NCBI GenBank assembly: GCA_963801605.1
Contig: CAWDFP010000006.1
Location: 256,001 to 320,000 of the forward strand
Source of the DNA: an uncultured candidate division Zixibacteria bacterium
Lineage (GTDB): Bacteria > Zixibacteria > MSB-5A5 > UBA10806
Reading direction: 5' to 3'
Length of the DNA stretch: 64,000 nt
The position numbers were made by a program. The stretch's first letter is position 1. Every line of letters starts with the position of its first letter. Positions 45,001 to 63,000 of the stretch are shown piece after piece.

Positions 45001-48000
45001 CTTACCCTTTGAAACCTCGCCATTATCTATTCGGATATTATACTGGCAATCCGGGTTAGAGCAAACCCAGGCTTTATATCGGATTTCTGAGCCATCGCGC
45101 CCGTAATCCGAAAGCGGCACCAGGACCCCCTTATTGCATTTCAAACATTGTGGGTAGTTTTCCAATTCCTCTCCTCCCTACGTTGTCCGCAACCCATAAT
45201 ATTACAAAACAAGGATTTGTCTGTCAATTAGGAATTGTTAGCATTTCAAAAAGAACAGCTGAATTACTATTGGAATCCGCCTTATTTCATAATTTTGGCA
45301 AACGATCCCGTTCAAAGGTTTATCCTATTATATCTTTTACGCTTACCCGTGCCGAAATTTTTTAGTTAAATTCATATCTGTCAGTTAGCTGTCGTCGCCG
45401 TTCATCGGCAACAGTTGTCCAAAGCTATGCCGAGACGTATTATATTTCTCCCTTAGCTTGTCCATTTTTCAAGTACAGGCTACCGTCTTTTTCAGTATCG
45501 GACAATAACCAGTAGTACAATTAAACCACCATCCCAAAGACTGCTTATTTGAAGAACCAATTCGGTTTTTGCCCCAAAATAAAGGGTCGGCCCATTTTTT
45601 TGTAGGACCGACCGCCTAAAGTAGCCCCCGCAATTCTTCTAATATGAAAAATGCCAGTTTTGCTGGCTTTTTTGATTTTTGTGATCCTTAGCAGTATTTC
45701 TCTAAGTAAACCCCTTTTTATAATCCAACGCAAATTAAGTAGGGGCGGGATGGCTGTCAAGCGAATAATTTTAGGCGAATTCTGGACCTAAAAATAGGTT
45801 GAAAAACTTATTACTTAAGCAACAAGAGCTTTTTAACTTCCGTTTGATCGCTTGCCCTGAGCCTGACAAAATATACGCCGCTTGAAACCGTCTGCCCATT
45901 GCCGTTATGCCCATCCCAAATAATACTGTGGCTCCCGGCCGGCAGCGGTTGATTGATCAGGGTGGTTATTTTCTGGCCGAGGATGTTATATATGGTAAGC
46001 TCAACAATTCCTGTGGCTGGGTAGGTCGAATTCAATCTTGGTTTGCGAATTAAAAGGATTGGGGTAGCTTTGATGCAAGGAGAAGCTTTTGGGGACCACT
46101 TCCACCTCTTTCCTGGGATAACCGCTGTTAATATGAAACGATTGGATTCCAGATCAAACCCGTGATCCCGCCCGCTCAGACCCTGATGGTCAGCCATCTG
46201 CCGCGCTGGTAATATACAAAGAAGGCGATGGCGCTAACGGCTGCCGCCAGAGTCATGATCCACCAGATGGCCAGCTCGCCGCCGCCGAAAAACTGCCTTA
46301 CAATGAAGATCGGCAAAACCTGTAACACCCAGGCATTGATGATATTTACAACCATCGCCGGAGTATTAAGCCCGACGCCAGTATGAACAAACTCAATGAT
46401 CATTAGAGCTCCCATAAATGGCATACAAAGTGCAATAATCCTCATCAGCCCCACGCCGTGTTCAATGGTTTCGGAATTCGAAAAGAATATTCCGAGCACC
46501 TGAGGCGCCAGAGCGAATATTATCAAGCCAAAGACAGTCATAATGCCGACACCTATCGCAATCGATTTGTCGCCGGTATTCTTGGCGCGTTCGATTTTTT
46601 CGGCGCCAACATTATGGCCGATAAGAGCCGAAAGCCCCAGTCCAATTCCCACCATAAGAGTATAGCCCAGTCCCATGATTTGATTGGCCACGCCATAAGC
46701 CGCCACCACCGCAGTCCCAAAACCGGCAATCATCGGAGTAATGAGAAGGCGCGACGATGAAAATGACATTTCGGCCAGCCAGGCGGGTATCCCCAATTTG
46801 ACTAATATCCACATGCTGTCAAGGGACATCTTCTCTTTGCTTTTCCAGTGGACTCGGACATTGGTATGGCCGGTGAAGAAAAGCCAGATGCCTATCGAAA
46901 AGATAACTGTAAAGGTAATCACCGAGGCATAGGCAGCGCCAACCATGCCAAAGGCCGGCAAACCGAAAAGCCCAAATATCAATATTGGATCCAGGGCCAT
47001 GTTGAGGACACTGAATCCAAGCATCAATATCATAGCCTTATGGGGATTGGCCGTTCCTCGAAGGGCAGTGAAGATTGTCCAGATGGCATAGTTGATGGGC
47101 AACCCTATAAAGATGATTCGTCCGTACTGGAGACCAAGAGTTAGAGATTCATCCCGCGCTCCGATTAGATACATCATCTGAGGTAGAAAAACAAATCCCA
47201 CAATACCGAAGATCGTTCCGAAAAGAAGCTTGAGTACGAGAGTTTCCTTGATCGCCTTCTCGGTCTTACCGTATTCCCTTTCGCCGTACCGTCGGGAGAT
47301 AATTGCCACCGAACCGGGACCAATCAAATGATTAAAGGTACCCAGAAACCAGGCCAGATTGTTAAAGAAGGTGATCCCCGCTACAGCCGATTCCGATTGA
47401 GGCAGATGCGAGACCCAGAACATATTTACCAAGCCATAAATGTTCTGCGACATAAATCCGAACATCGATGGCAATCCCATCTTGAGGATCGATTTGGTGA
47501 TGGATCCTTTGGTGTAATCGGTGTGGGTTTCGTTTTTATCGTCTATCATCTTTATGATCCAAAATAGCAGATACGTAAATATTTCACAAGTGTTGCCTGC
47601 AAGCCAATTTGATTTTAACCGGGTTCCGGGCACTTATCAAGAAATCAAATAGTTAGACAATGGGCACTTGCAGAACGCAGAGATGATTTATTTTAATTTC
47701 GTAAAATAACAGGGACAAAGGAGGCGGATATCGAAGATACACCTTATCAGTGCAGCAATTTTAAATTTATAAGAAATTATGTAATTTTAGTGATAATAAG
47801 GGCGGTGCGCGCCGAAATATATTATATTGGCAGTGCATGGTGATCTTAGTTAACGGTCACTGGGAGAGGAAGTATGTTTGGTCTTTAGGACGAACCCAAT
47901 CCTCCTTAAACTTTTCAGTAGATTTCATTTGATTCTCCTCTTATAATAATTAAAATTCGAGATGCGCGTGGAACAGACTATTTCGATAGCGACTAAATCA

Positions 48001-60000: not shown

Positions 60001-63000
60001 CGGATTATTTGGGAGAATTTTAATCCCGGCTCGTATTACCTTCCCGGCGCTGACAAGGCCAATTGGATGCAAATTGAATTTATGTTGAGTCTATAAAATA
60101 TTAGAAAATGTGATGTATTGGCGATAGAGTAAGGAGATATTATGGCGCTAAAAATTATCATTCTGGCGGCCTTCGCCCTGATGACTATCACGGTGGGCAT
60201 CATCGCCTCACGCAAAGCCCGCTCGTTTTCCGATTTCTTTTTAGGCGGTAACGATATCGGCCCCTGGATGACGGCTTTCACCTATGGCGCCGCTTATTTT
60301 TCGGCGGTGCTGTTCATCGGTTTTGCAGGCAAGATCGGTTGGGATTTCGGGATGTCAGGTCTCTGGATCGCCCTGGGCAATTCTTTTATCGGAGTTCTTG
60401 GGGTCTGGTGGATATTGGGCCCGCGAATTAAAAAGATGGCCACCGAAACCGGCGCTCAGACCATGGCAGAATATTTCGAGTTGCGATACAACAGCAAAGC
60501 CCTGAATATTTACACCTCGATTTGCATTTTCATTTTCTTTATCCCCTATACGGCGGCGGTATTTATGGGGCTTTCATATTTATTTAAAGCTAATTTCAAT
60601 GTCGAATATACTACGGCATTAATTTTCATGGGAGTTTTCACTGCTATATATCTGGTATTGGGCGGTTATCGTTCAATGACGATGATCGATGTTATCTTTG
60701 GAATAATCATGATTGCCGGAGTGATTACGCTTTTTTTCAGTACCGTAACCCGAGGCGGAGGCATGGCGATGATCTTTTCCGGGTTGGAAGCCATAAATCC
60801 CAAGTTGACATCGACTATCGGTCCGCCGGGAATCTGGCCTCTTTTCAGTCTGGTCTTTTTGACAAGCGTGGCTCCTTTTGCAATGCCGCAGCTTGTGCAG
60901 AAATTTTATGCGATTAAAGATCAACGTTCGATTCGAATCGGTATGGTGGCATCAACTATATTTTCAATCCTGATCGCGGGAGTCGCTTATTTTACCGGCG
61001 CCACCGCCAGGCTTTTTATAAATCCTGAAAATGCACCGGCCGCTTTCAATAATGGCAAGCCGGTGTTCGATGCCCTGGTACCGGAATTTTTAACCAAGGC
61101 GATACCGGAAGGCCTGGCAATCCTGATATTGCTTCTGGTGCTATCGGCCTCGATGTCAACCCTGGCGGCTTTGGTGCTTATTTCAAGCTCTACGGTCTCC
61201 AAAGATGTTTATCACAGATTTATCAATAAAAAGGCGAGCGATAAGAGGCTGACGATTCTGATGAGAGCCTGTAGCGCCTTTTTTGTGCTGCTTTCAGTGA
61301 TAATGGCCTATTTCAAACCGGCAACGATCGTGGCAATTCTGGGAATCTCCTGGGGCTCGATCGGGGCGGCTTTCCTGGGGCCGTTTGTGTGGGGATTACT
61401 CAGTAAACGAACCACCAAGTTTGGCGCATTTTCATCGTCAGTGCTTGGCCTGGCGACATGTTTGATACTATATGTTAAGGGAATTTCTCCGCCCGAGGCC
61501 GGTACAATTGGAATGCTGATATCTCTGGGGGCTTGCCCGATAATAAGCTTGTTCGCATTCGGCAAAGAACCGGTTATCGCTCCCGAGGTGCTTGAAGTAG
61601 AAGCGAAGCAGCGGATATAAATATAGCTAAATTAAAATCAATTGCCGGGGATTATTATACTCCCCGGTTTTTTTATTTCTTCACAACTCCCAGCGGAGCG
61701 ACTACCTTACCATAAACCTCATTTAATACCTGAGCCAAACCAGCATACATCGCCAGCAAACCGCAAATGATACCTTCAATGCCGGCAACCAGCTTAACGG
61801 CCGCGCTTTCGGTGGCATCGCCCAATGCTAACAGGAAGAAAAGCAGCGCCAGGGTGCCGAAAACAAGCTGTAAGGCGCGACTAATTTTCAGGGTTCCGAT
61901 AAACATGATGGCTGTAAACAGACCCCAGATAAAAAGATAGGACGCCATAGCCGCATTACCCGGAGCAGAGCCCCATCCGATACGAGGGAAAACAAGCAAC
62001 GCCACCAGGCTCATCCAGAAAAGGCCATAGGCGGTAAAAGCGGTTGTGCCAAATGTATTTTCCTTTTTCCATTCCATAATTCCGGCGATAACCTGCGCCA
62101 AACCTCCAAAAAACAGACCCATTCCCAGTATCATGGTATCGAGCGGGTATAGCCCGGCATTGTGCAGATTAAGGAGCACAGTGGTCATTCCAAATCCGAG
62201 TAAACCTAAAGGCGCCGGATTTGCGGTAGATTCTTTAACTATGCGCACCGAAGCGGCGGCGGTATCCATTACTTTCCTCCATTCATCAATTTAGTATCCG
62301 ATCATCGACCTTATTTAATATCCCATGCCACGTTTGTCCATAATAATTCCGGGGTTACGATATGCTTGCTTAGTTTGAGATTTCATTATAACTTATACTT
62401 TGAAATGGAATATTAAACAATTAAGGCGGAATCAAACCCTATGAAATTTGAAAATATCATTTTGCACGAGGTGGGGCCACGAGATGGTTTACAGGTCGAA
62501 AAGACCAGTGTGCCGCTGGATGAGAAAATTCGCTGGATAGATGGTGTTCTTAAAAGTGGAATCGATATCATTCAGCTTGGCTCCTTTGTCAATCCGGAAA
62601 AGGTGCCTCAAATGGCCGATACCGATAAGCTTTTCGCGCATTACGCATCGGTGGATAAAAAAGGAGTGATTTTATCGGCATTAGTGCTCAATGAAAAGGG
62701 GTTGGAGCGTGGCCTCGCTTGCGGAGTTGAGATGTTCTGCATGGGTGTTTCCGCCAGTGAGACTCATAGCAAGAAAAACACCGGCATGACCACGTCGGAG
62801 GCGTTGGGGCGAATTATACCGATGGCTAAACAAGCGCAAGCGGCCGGGAAAAAAGTACAGGTTTCGATTCAATCGGCGTTCGGTTGCGGTTTCGAGGGGC
62901 CAGTACCGGCGGAAAGAGTGCTTTCAATCGCCAAAGAGTATTTTGCCAATGACATTAGAAATATCAGCTTAGCCGATACAGCCGGACATGGCAACCCCGT

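What a model noticed while it worked through the whole genome (the two positions that open the first line are those of the whole stretch)
47962..60096. 58-haem cytochrome made of tandem trihaem units in a candidate trans-envelope electron conduit
One open gene (g00562, 1423 aa) carries 58 CxxCH haem-binding motifs in a strictly periodic pattern (spacing 32-15-25 residues, about 18 tandem 72-residue trihaem units) and is flanked by 4-, 14- and 10-haem paralogues (86 motifs in four adjacent genes), a membrane protein, a membrane Fe-S protein and two predicted outer-membrane beta-barrels. Boldest reading: the locus builds a single-chain haem wire some tens of nanometres long (my estimate from about 1 nm per haem) with its own porin-cytochrome conduit for extracellular electron transfer, and wire length is tuned by gain and loss of trihaem units. 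New would be the longest c7-type polymer known to me and a conduit not related to Mtr/Pcc, i [...]
Evidence so far: Motif counts and spacings by script; g00562 has a signal-peptide-like N-terminus; g00564 ends in an aromatic OMP-like terminus and g00566 hits Pfam Alginate_exp (beta-barrels), g00565 hits 4Fe-4S families. Homologues in 8 of 13 other genomes of the family and 0 of 10 of the sister family, as open frames of 486 to 1338 codons, i.e. different unit numbers. A second locus (C6:772888-788176) holds a 42-haem protein g01020 with four 6-7-haem proteins, two LpoB/CsgG-like lipoproteins and a likely barrel g01027. ImcH-like (g02483) and haem-c/cytochrome-b fusion proteins (g01095, g01096) are also present.
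(Added by a program. Inside this text positions count along the whole contig: contig position 256,001 is position 1 of the stretch shown here. "Call 12" and the like, gene names such as g00115 and contig names such as C1 are that model's own, and its searches are not shown. The text may have been shortened before it was handed on; [...] marks where a part breaks off. The agent that wrote the report below was given it as the finding of a first reader that could run no searches.)

Follow-up and report, generated by a model that had tools for sequence, protein, structure and literature searches.

The report
Adjustable-length haem wire in PCC3-type conduit
The 58-haem protein is real, but it is one length variant of a cytochrome that grows three haems at a time, and it sits in a widespread, previously predicted but untested gene cluster for moving electrons across the cell envelope.

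Summary
ORF 50586-54857 has 58 CxxCH motifs, and every one of its cysteines lies in a motif. It is built of a 10-haem core plus 16 tandem 72-residue trihaem units.

The interpretation needs correction in four places.
1. The "4-" and "14-haem" genes are one 20-haem gene split by a one-base frameshift.
2. 58 haems is no record. Orthologues carry 10 to 73 haems, all 39 complete ones fit 10+3n, and 85 to 87 sites are in print.
3. The Alginate_exp barrel is not part of the conserved cluster.
4. The cluster matches the published but experimentally untested "PCC3" type (PMC5566968). It has a ~300-aa inner-membrane protein with SGxxG and two WX3HX13H motifs, a ~20-haem cytochrome, a long variable cytochrome and a porin.

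Three things seem not to be in print.
- The strict 10+3n rule, with in-lineage expansion of units.
- A membrane-anchored Fe-S/flavin (TrxR/FNR-like) protein as a fifth component. Across 80 loci from many phyla it is fused to the membrane protein in 8 and adjacent to it in 49.
- The spread of the cluster, found in 87 of 285 genomes of the phylum.

Best reading: electrons pass from NAD(P)H to a dihaem b, then to the haem-c wire and the barrel. All function is inferred.

The parts
47962..48888 (+). Inner-membrane protein (308 aa), predicted dihaem b-type cytochrome of the PCC3 IMP type
   Evidence: Across 32 orthologues H110, H124, H275, H281, H295, S146, G147, G150 and W277 are invariant. This gives W106-x3-H110-x13-H124, S146-G-x-x-G150 and W277-x3-H281-x13-H295, the signature given for PCC3/PCC4 IMPs in PMC5566968. 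Pfam hits are weak only: DUF4405, Ni_hydr_CYTB, Ferric_reduct. The AF2 model is poor (pLDDT 63).
48876..50589 (+). 20-haem periplasmic cytochrome c gene, split here into ORFs 48876-49391 (4 motifs, signal peptide) and 49351-50589 (16 motifs, no signal peptide) by one extra base near 49351-49364
   Evidence: tblastn of the intact G001 orthologue runs from frame +1 into frame +2 with no residues missing. Most related loci have a single ORF of about 530-650 aa with 20 motifs. G013 is intact at the site.
50586..54857 (+). 58-haem cytochrome c (1423 aa): 10-haem core (N-terminal head and C-terminal tail) with 16 tandem trihaem units inserted
   Evidence: Pfam Cytochrome_C7 PF14522 E 7.9e-57 in 6 stretches, and Cytochrom_c3_2. 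N-terminus MKRIAIATVISLALATILLAANA has no lipobox Cys.
51108..54572 (+). Array of 16 trihaem units of 71-75 aa (register)
   Evidence: Each unit has 3 CxxCH. The FDH and GAH His are invariant and the PNH His is nearly invariant. There is no conserved Met. TRF period 216. Unit pairs 11/12 and 14/15 are 90% and 93% identical in DNA.
54882..55667 (+). 10-haem cytochrome c (261 aa), paralogue of the polymer without the repeats (n=0)
   Evidence: Spacing 32,16,16,34,19,25,35,15,28 equals head plus tail. It is 39% and 41% identical to the polymer's N- and C-terminal parts. As an extra gene it is present only in G000, G012 and G001.
55670..57271 (+). Outer-membrane protein (533 aa): small N-terminal beta domain, linker, predicted 22-strand beta-barrel ending GYRF
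   Evidence: AF2 model pLDDT 73, pTM 0.60, 22 strands over residues 130-532. Foldseek gives only generic OM barrels, prob 1.0, TM 0.23-0.40. No Pfam family, including MtrB_PioB. Profile found in 87 of 285 genomes of the phylum.
57302..58624 (+). Membrane-anchored Fe-S flavoprotein (440 aa): N-terminal TM helix, CxxCxxCxxxCP and CxxHxxCxxxCP motifs, TrxR/FNR-like FAD/NAD(P)H domain
   Evidence: Pfam Pyr_redox_3 2.6e-43 plus Fer4 families. Nearest solved chains are YpdA/Bdr 7a7b, TrxR, and TrxR-type FNR 3ab1 and 3lzw. Sequence. C59, C65, C69, C90, H93, C96 and C100 are invariant in 42 sequences. There is no CxxC in the flavin domain. It is fused to the IMP in 8 loci and adjacent in 49 of 80.
58774..60096 (+). 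Alginate_exp-like barrel (440 aa): a neighbour, probably not part of the system
   Evidence: Pfam PF13372, 33 bits. A 150-bp gap separates it from the upstream gene. No homologue in 12 + 40 related loci.

Best explanation
The locus is a Zixibacteria version of the PCC3-type porin-cytochrome cluster.

Shown by sequence: five co-linear genes.
1. A ~300-aa inner-membrane protein with two HX13H helices.
2. A 20-haem cytochrome c.
3. A cytochrome c of 10+3n haems (n=16 here).
4. A predicted 22-strand outer-membrane barrel.
5. A membrane-anchored cytoplasmic protein with two Fe-S motifs and a TrxR/FNR-like flavin domain.

Inferred mechanism: NAD(P)H reduces the FAD. Electrons pass through the two Fe-S clusters to two stacked b haems that span the inner membrane. 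They then pass to the 20-haem cytochrome in the periplasm, and on to the long cytochrome, which passes through or docks on the barrel and reaches outward to an insoluble or distant acceptor. This would be a quinone-independent electron outlet.

Wire length is set in evolution by unequal recombination among the 216-bp units.

In this genome the 20-haem gene carries a frameshift. This is either an assembly error or means the pathway is broken here.
For: - Anatomy.
- Conserved order in 37 of 40 loci of the phylum. Barrel profile in 87 of 285 genomes and 39 of 130 genera.
- 10+3n in all 39 complete ORFs, and in 17 of 19 head+tail ORFs from other phyla.
- Recent expansion. G000 internal units 3-15 are 79-96% identical to another G000 unit, against 66-75% to the best G012 unit. 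The edge units are orthologous.
- IMP motifs are invariant in 32 sequences and match the PCC3/PCC4 IMP signature. That paper compares this signature with the dihaem ferric-reductase domain (PMC5566968).
- Link between flavoprotein and IMP. Among 80 loci found through the flavoprotein, whose record titles name many phyla, the two are one ORF in 8, within 600 bp in 49, and in the same locus in 13. In 31 of 33 Methylophilaceae/Gammaproteobacteria loci the flavoprotein gene lies divergently next to IMP-27-haem-long MHC.
- The fusion order (flavoprotein then IMP) fits a cytoplasmic N-terminus of the IMP.
- No CxxC in the flavin domain, so it is not a disulfide reductase.
- Cytochrome c assembly genes are present: PF01578, 2 hits.
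- The 20-haem protein is 30% identical over about 570 aa (E 5e-60) to the 27-haem protein of the Methylotenera-type cluster.
Against: - Nothing is measured: no haem attachment, location, direction of flow or expression data.
- The 20-haem gene is frameshifted here, and its 16-haem part lacks a signal peptide.
- The IMP model is poor and finds no fold match. No solved relative is found by sequence. Pfam Ferric_reduct and cytochrome-b hits are far below cut-off.
- The barrel is only weakly similar to the proteobacterial barrel-like ORFs (HMM 16-20 bits, BLAST E about 8e-4). Barrel homology to published PCC3 porins is therefore not shown.
- The long cytochrome of the proteobacterial clusters uses a different repeat, about 24 aa per haem.
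- The published model links the IMP to the quinone pool and proposes Fe(II) oxidation.
- The NAD(P)H specificity of the flavin domain is inferred from family membership only.
- The polymer has no lipoprotein signal, and no secretion route is identified.
Confidence: 0.55

Rival explanations
1. Same PCC3-type conduit, but run inward or linked to quinone as in the published model. Electrons from extracellular Fe(II), Mn(II) or a partner cell pass through the barrel and cytochromes to the dihaem b protein. That protein reduces the quinone pool. The flavoprotein has another or regulatory role.
For: PMC5566968 proposes exactly this for PCC3. PCC3 occurs in iron oxidisers and its IMP gene rose in iron-oxidising cells of Sideroxydans CL21 (PMC12442390). 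Papers read in passages suggest iron oxidation for Zixibacteria (PMC3903129; PMC9769843).
Against: Fusion (8) and adjacency (49) of the flavoprotein with the IMP in 80 loci argue for direct electron exchange with a cytoplasmic partner. From general bioenergetics (my inference), inward transfer to NAD(P)+ from Fe(II) is uphill and works against the membrane potential. No quinone site was tested or can be tested here.
Confidence: 0.22
2. The long cytochrome stays in the periplasm as an electron store (capacitor) or periplasm-spanning cable, as proposed for Geobacter GSU1996. The barrel serves another purpose.
For: The capacitor role of GSU1996-type nanowire cytochromes is in print (PMC10138318). 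The polymer has a plain signal peptide and no lipobox. Soares et al. discuss storage as a driver of high haem numbers (PMC11492766).
Against: The barrel gene is strictly linked directly downstream of the long cytochrome in 37 of 40 loci, and is present in 61 of 80 loci from other phyla. If the polymer is extended at about 1 nm per haem, 58 haems would exceed the periplasmic widths quoted in PMC11492766. That scaling comes from the 12-haem/12-nm GSU1996 title and is an extrapolation.
Confidence: 0.12
3. In this particular genome the pathway is decaying. The frameshift in the 20-haem gene is real, and the cluster is no longer functional.
For: The one-base frameshift leaves the 16-haem part without an export signal. 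Other assemblies also show broken genes in this cluster: L028, L051, L052 and G001.
Against: The other four genes, including a 4.3-kb repeat-rich ORF, are intact. The breaks in several MAGs are as well explained by assembly indels. No reads could be examined (see Tried and rejected).
Confidence: 0.15

Closest known systems
PCC3 porin-cytochrome c gene cluster (predicted in PMC5566968; surveyed in Gallionellaceae in PMC10734462; function untested)
   Same: - IMP of about 300 aa with SGxxG and two WX3HX13H motifs.
- Periplasmic MHC of about 20-27 haems, 30% identical to the Methylotenera-type 27-haem protein.
- A long repeat-built MHC with very variable haem number.
- An adjacent large barrel.
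   Different: - The long MHC here is built of 72-aa trihaem units on a 10-haem core, not repeats of about 24 aa per haem.
- The barrel is only marginally similar.
- Gene order differs.
- The host is Zixibacteria rather than Proteobacteria.
- A Fe-S flavoprotein gene belongs to the cluster. 'FAD' and 'ferredoxin' do not occur in the main text of PMC5566968.
Geobacter c7-type cytochrome polymers GSU1996/GSU0592 (12 haems) and GSU2210 (27 haems)
   Same: Single chains of tandem trihaem domains. Pfam PF14522 matches.
   Different: - No sequence match of the unit profile to any solved c7 or GSU1996 chain at E<=1.
- All three haems of a unit appear to be bis-His. GSU1996 has one His-Met haem per domain (PMC10138318).
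- Far more units.
- Embedded in a barrel/IMP cluster.
MtrCAB / MtoAB / PioAB
   Same: A decahaem-type cytochrome gene lies next to an outer-membrane barrel gene. The n=0 form (10 haems + barrel) looks like an MtrAB-style pair.
   Different: No MtrB_PioB match for three orthologous barrels, and none in the whole genome. TIGR03508 decahaem scores of 42-52 bits fall well short of the 192-bit cut-off. A 22-strand barrel is predicted, against the 26 strands of MtrB (the 26 is recalled).
Eukaryotic and bacterial NOX / ferric reductase (FRD domain, PF01794)
   Same: Two HX13H helices are predicted to hold two b haems across the membrane and to be fed by a flavin/NAD(P)H module. The comparison of the IMP with FRD is made in PMC5566968.
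   Different: - Pfam PF01794 is not met (E 0.24 to 4).
- Five rather than six TM helices.
- The flavin module is TrxR-type with two Fe-S clusters. It is a separate protein, or is fused at the N-terminus.
- The acceptor is a haem-c wire rather than O2 or Fe(III) chelate.
Tmc/Hmc transmembrane redox complexes of sulfate reducers (recalled, no call)
   Same: A periplasmic multihaem cytochrome c, a membrane cytochrome b and a cytoplasmic Fe-S protein are encoded together. HmcA is the best NCBIfam hit of the polymer, at 80 bits against a 400-bit cut-off.
   Different: No barrel and no flavin domain. The cytochrome b family is different. Membership was not tested.

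Membership tests
PCC3 cluster (PMC5566968) | IMP of about 300 aa with five TM helices, SGXXG on TM4 and WX3HX13H on TM3 and TM5 | tested here: met
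   W106-x3-H110-x13-H124, S146-G147-x-x-G150 and W277-x3-H281-x13-H295. The His, S, G and W277 residues are invariant in 32 sequences. Helix count is from the DSSP of a low-confidence model and from hydrophobic stretches.
PCC3 cluster (PMC5566968) | Periplasmic MHC with about 21 (21-27) haem sites encoded next to the IMP | tested here: met
   20 motifs (4+16 across the frameshift). 30% identity, E 5e-60, to the 27-haem protein of Methylotenera-type clusters.
PCC3 cluster (PMC5566968) | Second, repeat-built MHC with a large and variable haem number, predicted extracellular | tested here: inconclusive
   Number and variability are met: 10-73 haems. The repeat type differs from the proteobacterial one. 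Location cannot be tested here.
PCC3 cluster (PMC5566968) | Adjacent outer-membrane beta-barrel (porin) homologous to PCC3 porins | tested here: inconclusive
   A 22-strand barrel is predicted. Only 16-20 bit HMM matches and E about 8e-4 to the barrel-like ORFs of Methylophilaceae clusters. No reference PCC3 porin sequence was at hand.
c7-type cytochrome polymer (GSU1996 family) | Tandem domains of three c haems that match the c7 family model | tested here: met
   PF14522 E 7.9e-57, 6 stretches. 16 units with 3 CxxCH each.
c7-type cytochrome polymer (GSU1996 family) | Detectable sequence relation to solved c7 or GSU1996 domains | tested here: not met
   phmmer of the whole protein gave 0 hits. 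The unit profile gave nothing below E 0.018, and no c7 or GSU1996 chain at E<=1.
c7-type cytochrome polymer (GSU1996 family) | One His-Met haem per domain (PMC10138318) | tested here: not met
   No conserved Met in the unit. Three conserved non-motif His per unit: FDH and GAH invariant, PNH nearly so.
MtrAB/PioAB/MtoAB | Barrel of the MtrB_PioB family (PF11854) | tested here: not met
   No hit at E<=10 for three orthologues. 0 hits in the whole genome. That search's control rang in only 1 of 14 control genomes, below cut-off, so its sensitivity is unproven.
MtrAB/PioAB/MtoAB | DmsE/MtrA-family decahaem (TIGR03508) | tested here: not met
   41.9 bits (polymer) and 52.3 bits (20-haem orthologue), against a cut-off of 192.
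Geobacter Pcc (OmbB-OmaB-OmcB, Ext clusters) | Homology to OmbB/Ext porins and their lipoprotein cytochromes | not tested
   No reference sequences or models at hand, apart from NCBIfam. There the barrel's N-terminus hits ExtJ at 19 bits, below the cut-off of 52.5.
Ferric reductase / NOX transmembrane domain (PF01794) | Match to the family model | tested here: not met
   E 0.24 and 4 in two orthologues, and none in the window protein.
TrxR-like flavoproteins (YpdA / TrxR / TrxR-type FNR) | Two-dinucleotide-fold FAD/NAD(P)H domain; redox-active CxxC for the disulfide reductases | tested here: inconclusive
   The domain is met: Pyr_redox_3 149 bits, 7a7b 153 bits. YpdA and TrxR equivalog cut-offs are not reached. 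There is no CxxC in the flavin domain. It is therefore FNR-like by exclusion, and this is not proven.

The most novel reading that the evidence does not exclude
PCC3-type conduits are not quinone-linked. They would be a bacterial, split (sometimes fused) counterpart of NOX/ferric reductase. A membrane-anchored NAD(P)H-oxidising Fe-S flavoprotein docks on a dihaem b protein. Through it, cytoplasmic reducing power feeds directly into a haem-c cable whose length is adjustable in steps of three haems (10 to at least 73). The cable passes a dedicated 22-strand barrel. The module occurs in MAGs whose record titles name about 15 phylum-level groups, including aerobes and methylotrophs. That would make direct, respiration-independent disposal of electrons to the outside a common bacterial trait.
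Probability: 0.35. Interest if true: 0.8.

Novelty: new variant of a known kind. Interest (0 to 1): 0.6.

Why it matters
PCC3 is one of the most widespread predicted routes of extracellular electron transfer, and it is still untested. How its inner-membrane end is fed is open.

This locus and its relatives offer three concrete handles.
1. A natural length series (10, 16, 19, up to 73 haems) of one cytochrome on a constant core. This allows a test of how haem-wire length relates to function or habitat.
2. A candidate cytoplasmic electron-input protein whose fusions with the membrane protein predict a physical complex. If confirmed, this would change the published quinone-linked model and the expected energetics and direction of flow.
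3. Evidence that the system is common far outside Proteobacteria, which bears on how iron and electrode redox potential is read from metagenomes.

The headline claim of a record haem number does not hold.

Tried and rejected
- Record haem number: rejected. 73, 70 and 67 haems occur in the same family. 85 is reported in PMC5566968 and 87 in PMC11492766.
- Alginate_exp barrel as part of the system: rejected.
- MtrB membership: rejected.
- PDB sequence searches. The whole polymer gave 0 hits. The unit profile gave nothing meaningful. The IMP profile gave only chance coiled-coil hits at E about 1.
- IMP structure. The AF2 model has pLDDT 63 and pTM 0.41, and Foldseek found no match at E<=0.001. 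I draw no conclusion about the fold from it.
- Barrel fold search: only generic barrels.
- Protein Atlas: nearest clusters of both the IMP and the barrel are unnamed 'hypothetical protein' clusters. These are leads only.
- Reads: the look-up of sequencing runs listed none. The frameshift and the array length therefore could not be checked against reads, and read laying was not used.
No binding test was made for barrel + 10-haem or for IMP + flavoprotein.
- The search of earlier findings was not open.
- The search for related loci with the barrel alignment A7 failed for lack of a conserved stretch. The flavoprotein alignment was used instead.
- Programmed frameshift. G000 and G082 (L028, another family) both need a +1 shift within about 5 codons of each other. 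The local sequences differ and nothing was tested, so this is left as unexplained.
The fold of the trihaem unit and the length of the wire in nm were therefore not modelled.
- Literature on the flavoprotein link. 'porin-cytochrome' with 'pyridine nucleotide-disulfide oxidoreductase' gave 0 papers. 'PCC3, porin, 4Fe-4S, FAD' gave nothing relevant.
- Literature on Zixibacteria. Searches found only general mentions of MtrAB-like or porin-cytochrome genes.
- Supplementary tables of PMC5566968 were searched for phylum names only. Its figures and the bioRxiv supplements were not seen, and they may show neighbouring genes.

Full report
OBSERVATION. ORF 50535-54857 holds 58 CxxCH motifs and no variant motifs. 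All 116 cysteines lie in these motifs. Spacing is 36,16,16,35,19,25, then repeated 32/33-15-25, then 35,15,28. From the second Met (50586) the protein is 1423 aa, with a signal-peptide-like N-terminus and no lipobox cysteine. Tandem Repeats Finder reports a 216-bp period over 51596-54349 (12.8 copies, 74% matches). The 16 units are 48-93% identical at DNA level and share no exact repeat of 80 bp or more, so collapse or inflation by the assembler is unlikely.

NEIGHBOURS. Pfam results are, NCBIfam.
- 47962-48888: membrane protein with only weak DUF4405, cytochrome-b and Ferric_reduct hints.
- 48876-49391 (4 motifs, signal peptide) and 49351-50589 (16 motifs, no signal peptide). A tblastn of the intact orthologue of G001 runs from frame +1 into frame +2 at about 49351-49364 without losing a residue. 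This is therefore one 20-haem gene with one extra base. G013, of the same genus, is in frame at this site.
- 54882-55667: a 10-haem protein whose spacing equals head plus tail of the polymer. It is 39% and 41% identical to the polymer's two ends.
- 55670-57271: no Pfam family, ends in GYRF. AF2 with 11 sequences (pLDDT 73, pTM 0.60) gives a small N-terminal beta domain, a disordered linker and 22 strands. Foldseek finds only generic outer-membrane barrels.
- 57302-58624: N-terminal TM helix, CxxCxxCxxxCP and CxxHxxCxxxCP, then a Pyr_redox_3 domain. The nearest solved chains are YpdA/Bdr, TrxR and TrxR-type FNR. There is no CxxC in the flavin domain.
- 58774-60096: hits Alginate_exp, but has no homologue in 12 + 40 related loci. 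I drop it from the system.

THE POLYMER IS A LENGTH SERIES. Within the family, the phylum and named Zixibacteria MAGs, the same protein occurs with 10, 16, 19, 22, 25, 28, 31, 37, 43, 46, 52, 55, 58, 67, 70 and 73 motifs. All 39 ORFs that have both head and tail fit 10+3n (spacings). Six of the 39 have 58.

Seven ORFs or loci were left out of that count:
- L028 (36+3 motifs)
- L031
- L036
- L051 (14+47)
- L056 (cut by the contig end)
- L048
- L029

The same head+tail type occurs in records titled Saprospiraceae (70), Rikenellaceae (49), Acidobacteriaceae (37) and others. Of these, 17 of 19 are 1 mod 3.

Each unit keeps three CxxCH plus three conserved further His (the FDH and GAH His invariant, the PNH His nearly so) and no Met. 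Bis-His ligation of all haems is the simplest reading.

Units 3-15 of G000 are 79-96% identical to another G000 unit, but only 66-75% identical to the best unit of the same-genus 43-haem orthologue. The edge units pair across genomes. The array has therefore been expanded or homogenised within this lineage.

THE CLUSTER. In 37 of 40 loci taken from barrel hits across the phylum the order is membrane protein, 20-haem, polymer, barrel, flavoprotein. The other three are cut by contig ends. The barrel profile hits 87 of 285 genomes (39 of 130 genera), 8 of 13 in the family and 0 of 10 in the sister family. The polymer query matched 9 of 13, one of them weak.

THE INNER-MEMBRANE END.

Motifs. In 32 orthologues of the membrane protein H110, H124, H275, H281, H295, S146, G147, G150 and W277 are invariant. 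This gives W-x3-H-x13-H twice and SGxxG.

Adjacency and fusion. Searching public genomes with the flavoprotein alignment found at least 566 relatives. The best 80 loci carry record titles naming about 15 phylum-level groups. HMMs of my own alignments were run on their ORFs, with these results:
- membrane protein fused to the flavoprotein in one ORF of 742-834 aa: 8 loci
- the two within 600 bp of each other: 49 loci
- elsewhere in the same locus: 13 loci
- not in the fetched DNA: 10 loci, mostly short contigs
- a barrel homologue present: 61 loci
- two or more cytochromes of at least 10 haems: 55 loci
- all components present: 45 loci

Proteobacterial clusters. In 31 of 33 Methylophilaceae/Gammaproteobacteria loci the flavoprotein gene lies divergently next to membrane protein, 27-haem protein, long cytochrome (11-64 haems) and a large barrel-like ORF.

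Fe-S ligands. C59, C65, C69, C90, H93, C96 and C100 of the flavoprotein are invariant in 42 sequences.

WHAT IS KNOWN.

PCC3. PMC5566968 (abstract, passages, section 16) defined "PCC3". It comprises a porin, an extracellular MHC (median 34 sites, up to 63 and 85), a periplasmic MHC (median 21) and a ~300-aa IMP. The IMP has five TM helices, SGXXG on TM4 and two WX3HX13H motifs, and was predicted to bind two b haems and to talk to the quinone pool. PCC3 was found in Proteobacteria. The window's membrane protein meets this signature exactly. PMC10734462 (passages) reports periplasmic 21/24/27-haem and extracellular 10-35-haem PCC3 subunits in Gallionellaceae. PMC12442390 (passages) calls the function unverified.

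Haem records. PMC11492766 (sections 5 and 11) reports up to 87 sites in Desulfuromonadia.

Zixibacteria. The papers seen in passages mention only MtrAB-like or Geobacter-like porin-cytochrome genes.

The flavoprotein. The main text of PMC5566968 contains neither 'FAD' nor 'ferredoxin'. No paper in the library holds 'porin-cytochrome' together with 'pyridine nucleotide-disulfide oxidoreductase'. I did not see figures or most supplements.

SAME AND DIFFERENT. The 20-haem protein is 30% identical (E 5e-60) to the Methylotenera-type 27-haem protein. The proteobacterial long cytochrome uses a repeat of about 24 aa per haem, like the 42-haem protein of this genome's second locus, and not trihaem units. 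The barrels are only marginally similar. The unit profile finds no solved c7 or GSU1996 chain. GSU1996 domains each have a His-Met haem (PMC10138318). The c7 label therefore means only a Pfam-level relation.

MECHANISM.

Shown: the gene content, the motifs, the co-linearity, the fusions and the length series.

Inferred: NAD(P)H to FAD, to two Fe-S clusters (one probably His-ligated), to two b haems across the membrane, to the 20-haem periplasmic cytochrome, to the 10+3n cytochrome at or through the 22-strand barrel, to an external acceptor. The fusion order fits a cytoplasmic N-terminus of the membrane protein.

I prefer outward flow. Inward flow to NAD(P)+ would be uphill and against the membrane potential. 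This is my inference from general bioenergetics.

Rivals are the published quinone-linked or Fe(II)-oxidising model, a periplasmic capacitor, and decay of the locus in this genome.

LIMITS.
- No reads could be examined.
- The complex predictor was unavailable.
- The IMP model was too poor to use.
- The polymer itself was not folded, so the length in nm (about 1 nm per haem, by analogy with the 12-haem, 12-nm GSU1996 cited) is an extrapolation.
- The genome does hold cytochrome c assembly genes.

VERDICT. This is a real and striking protein, but a member of a length series within a published, untested class. The strict 10+3n rule, the flavoprotein partner and the breadth of distribution are the parts worth following up.

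Noticed in passing
window 49330-49380; L028:9800-9900: Two unrelated genomes (G000 and G082, a different family) both need a +1 frameshift in the 20-haem gene, within about 5 codons of each other, but at different local sequences. This could be coincidence, an error-prone spot or recoding. It was not resolved.
   Followed up: partly
G000 C6:773354-776497 (outside the window): The second-locus 42-haem protein uses a 25/23-residue haem spacing. This is the same repeat style as the long cytochrome of Methylophilaceae PCC3-type clusters (24/23) and differs from the trihaem units in the window.
   Followed up: partly
window 57302-58624 (residues 90-101): The second Fe-S motif reads CxxHxxCxxxCP, and the His is invariant in 42 orthologues. 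This suggests a Cys3His-ligated cluster, a kind I recall sitting at electron exit or entry points.
   Followed up: partly
L078, L086, L096, L121, L135, L136, L138, L140: Natural fusions of the Fe-S flavoprotein with the dihaem-b-type membrane protein, as single ORFs of 742-834 aa. The record titles name Planctomycetota, Phycisphaerales, Brocadiaceae, Elusimicrobia and one uncultured bacterium.
   Followed up: yes
L014 (G001:C3) 7515-12084: The polymer of G001 is split into five overlapping ORFs (8+14+15+15+9 motifs) with an in-frame TAG. This is either a broken gene or assembly errors in a repeat array of about 61 haems.
   Followed up: no
L060 (G041:C2): One genome of the phylum has only the n=0 form (10 haems) between the 20-haem gene and the barrel. 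The decahaem + barrel pair may be the ancestral state of the series.
   Followed up: no
window 55670-55990 (barrel residues 23-91): The barrel protein carries a conserved small N-terminal beta domain with an invariant Cys (C73). It gives a weak, below-cut-off NCBIfam hit to ExtJ of the Geobacter Ext cluster (19 bits). Its role (plug or cytochrome dock) is unknown.
   Followed up: no
window 45811-46197 (- strand): A small ORF with FlgD_ig and weak type IX secretion C-terminal sorting domain hits lies upstream, next to a MatE transporter gene. No link to the cluster was seen.
   Followed up: no
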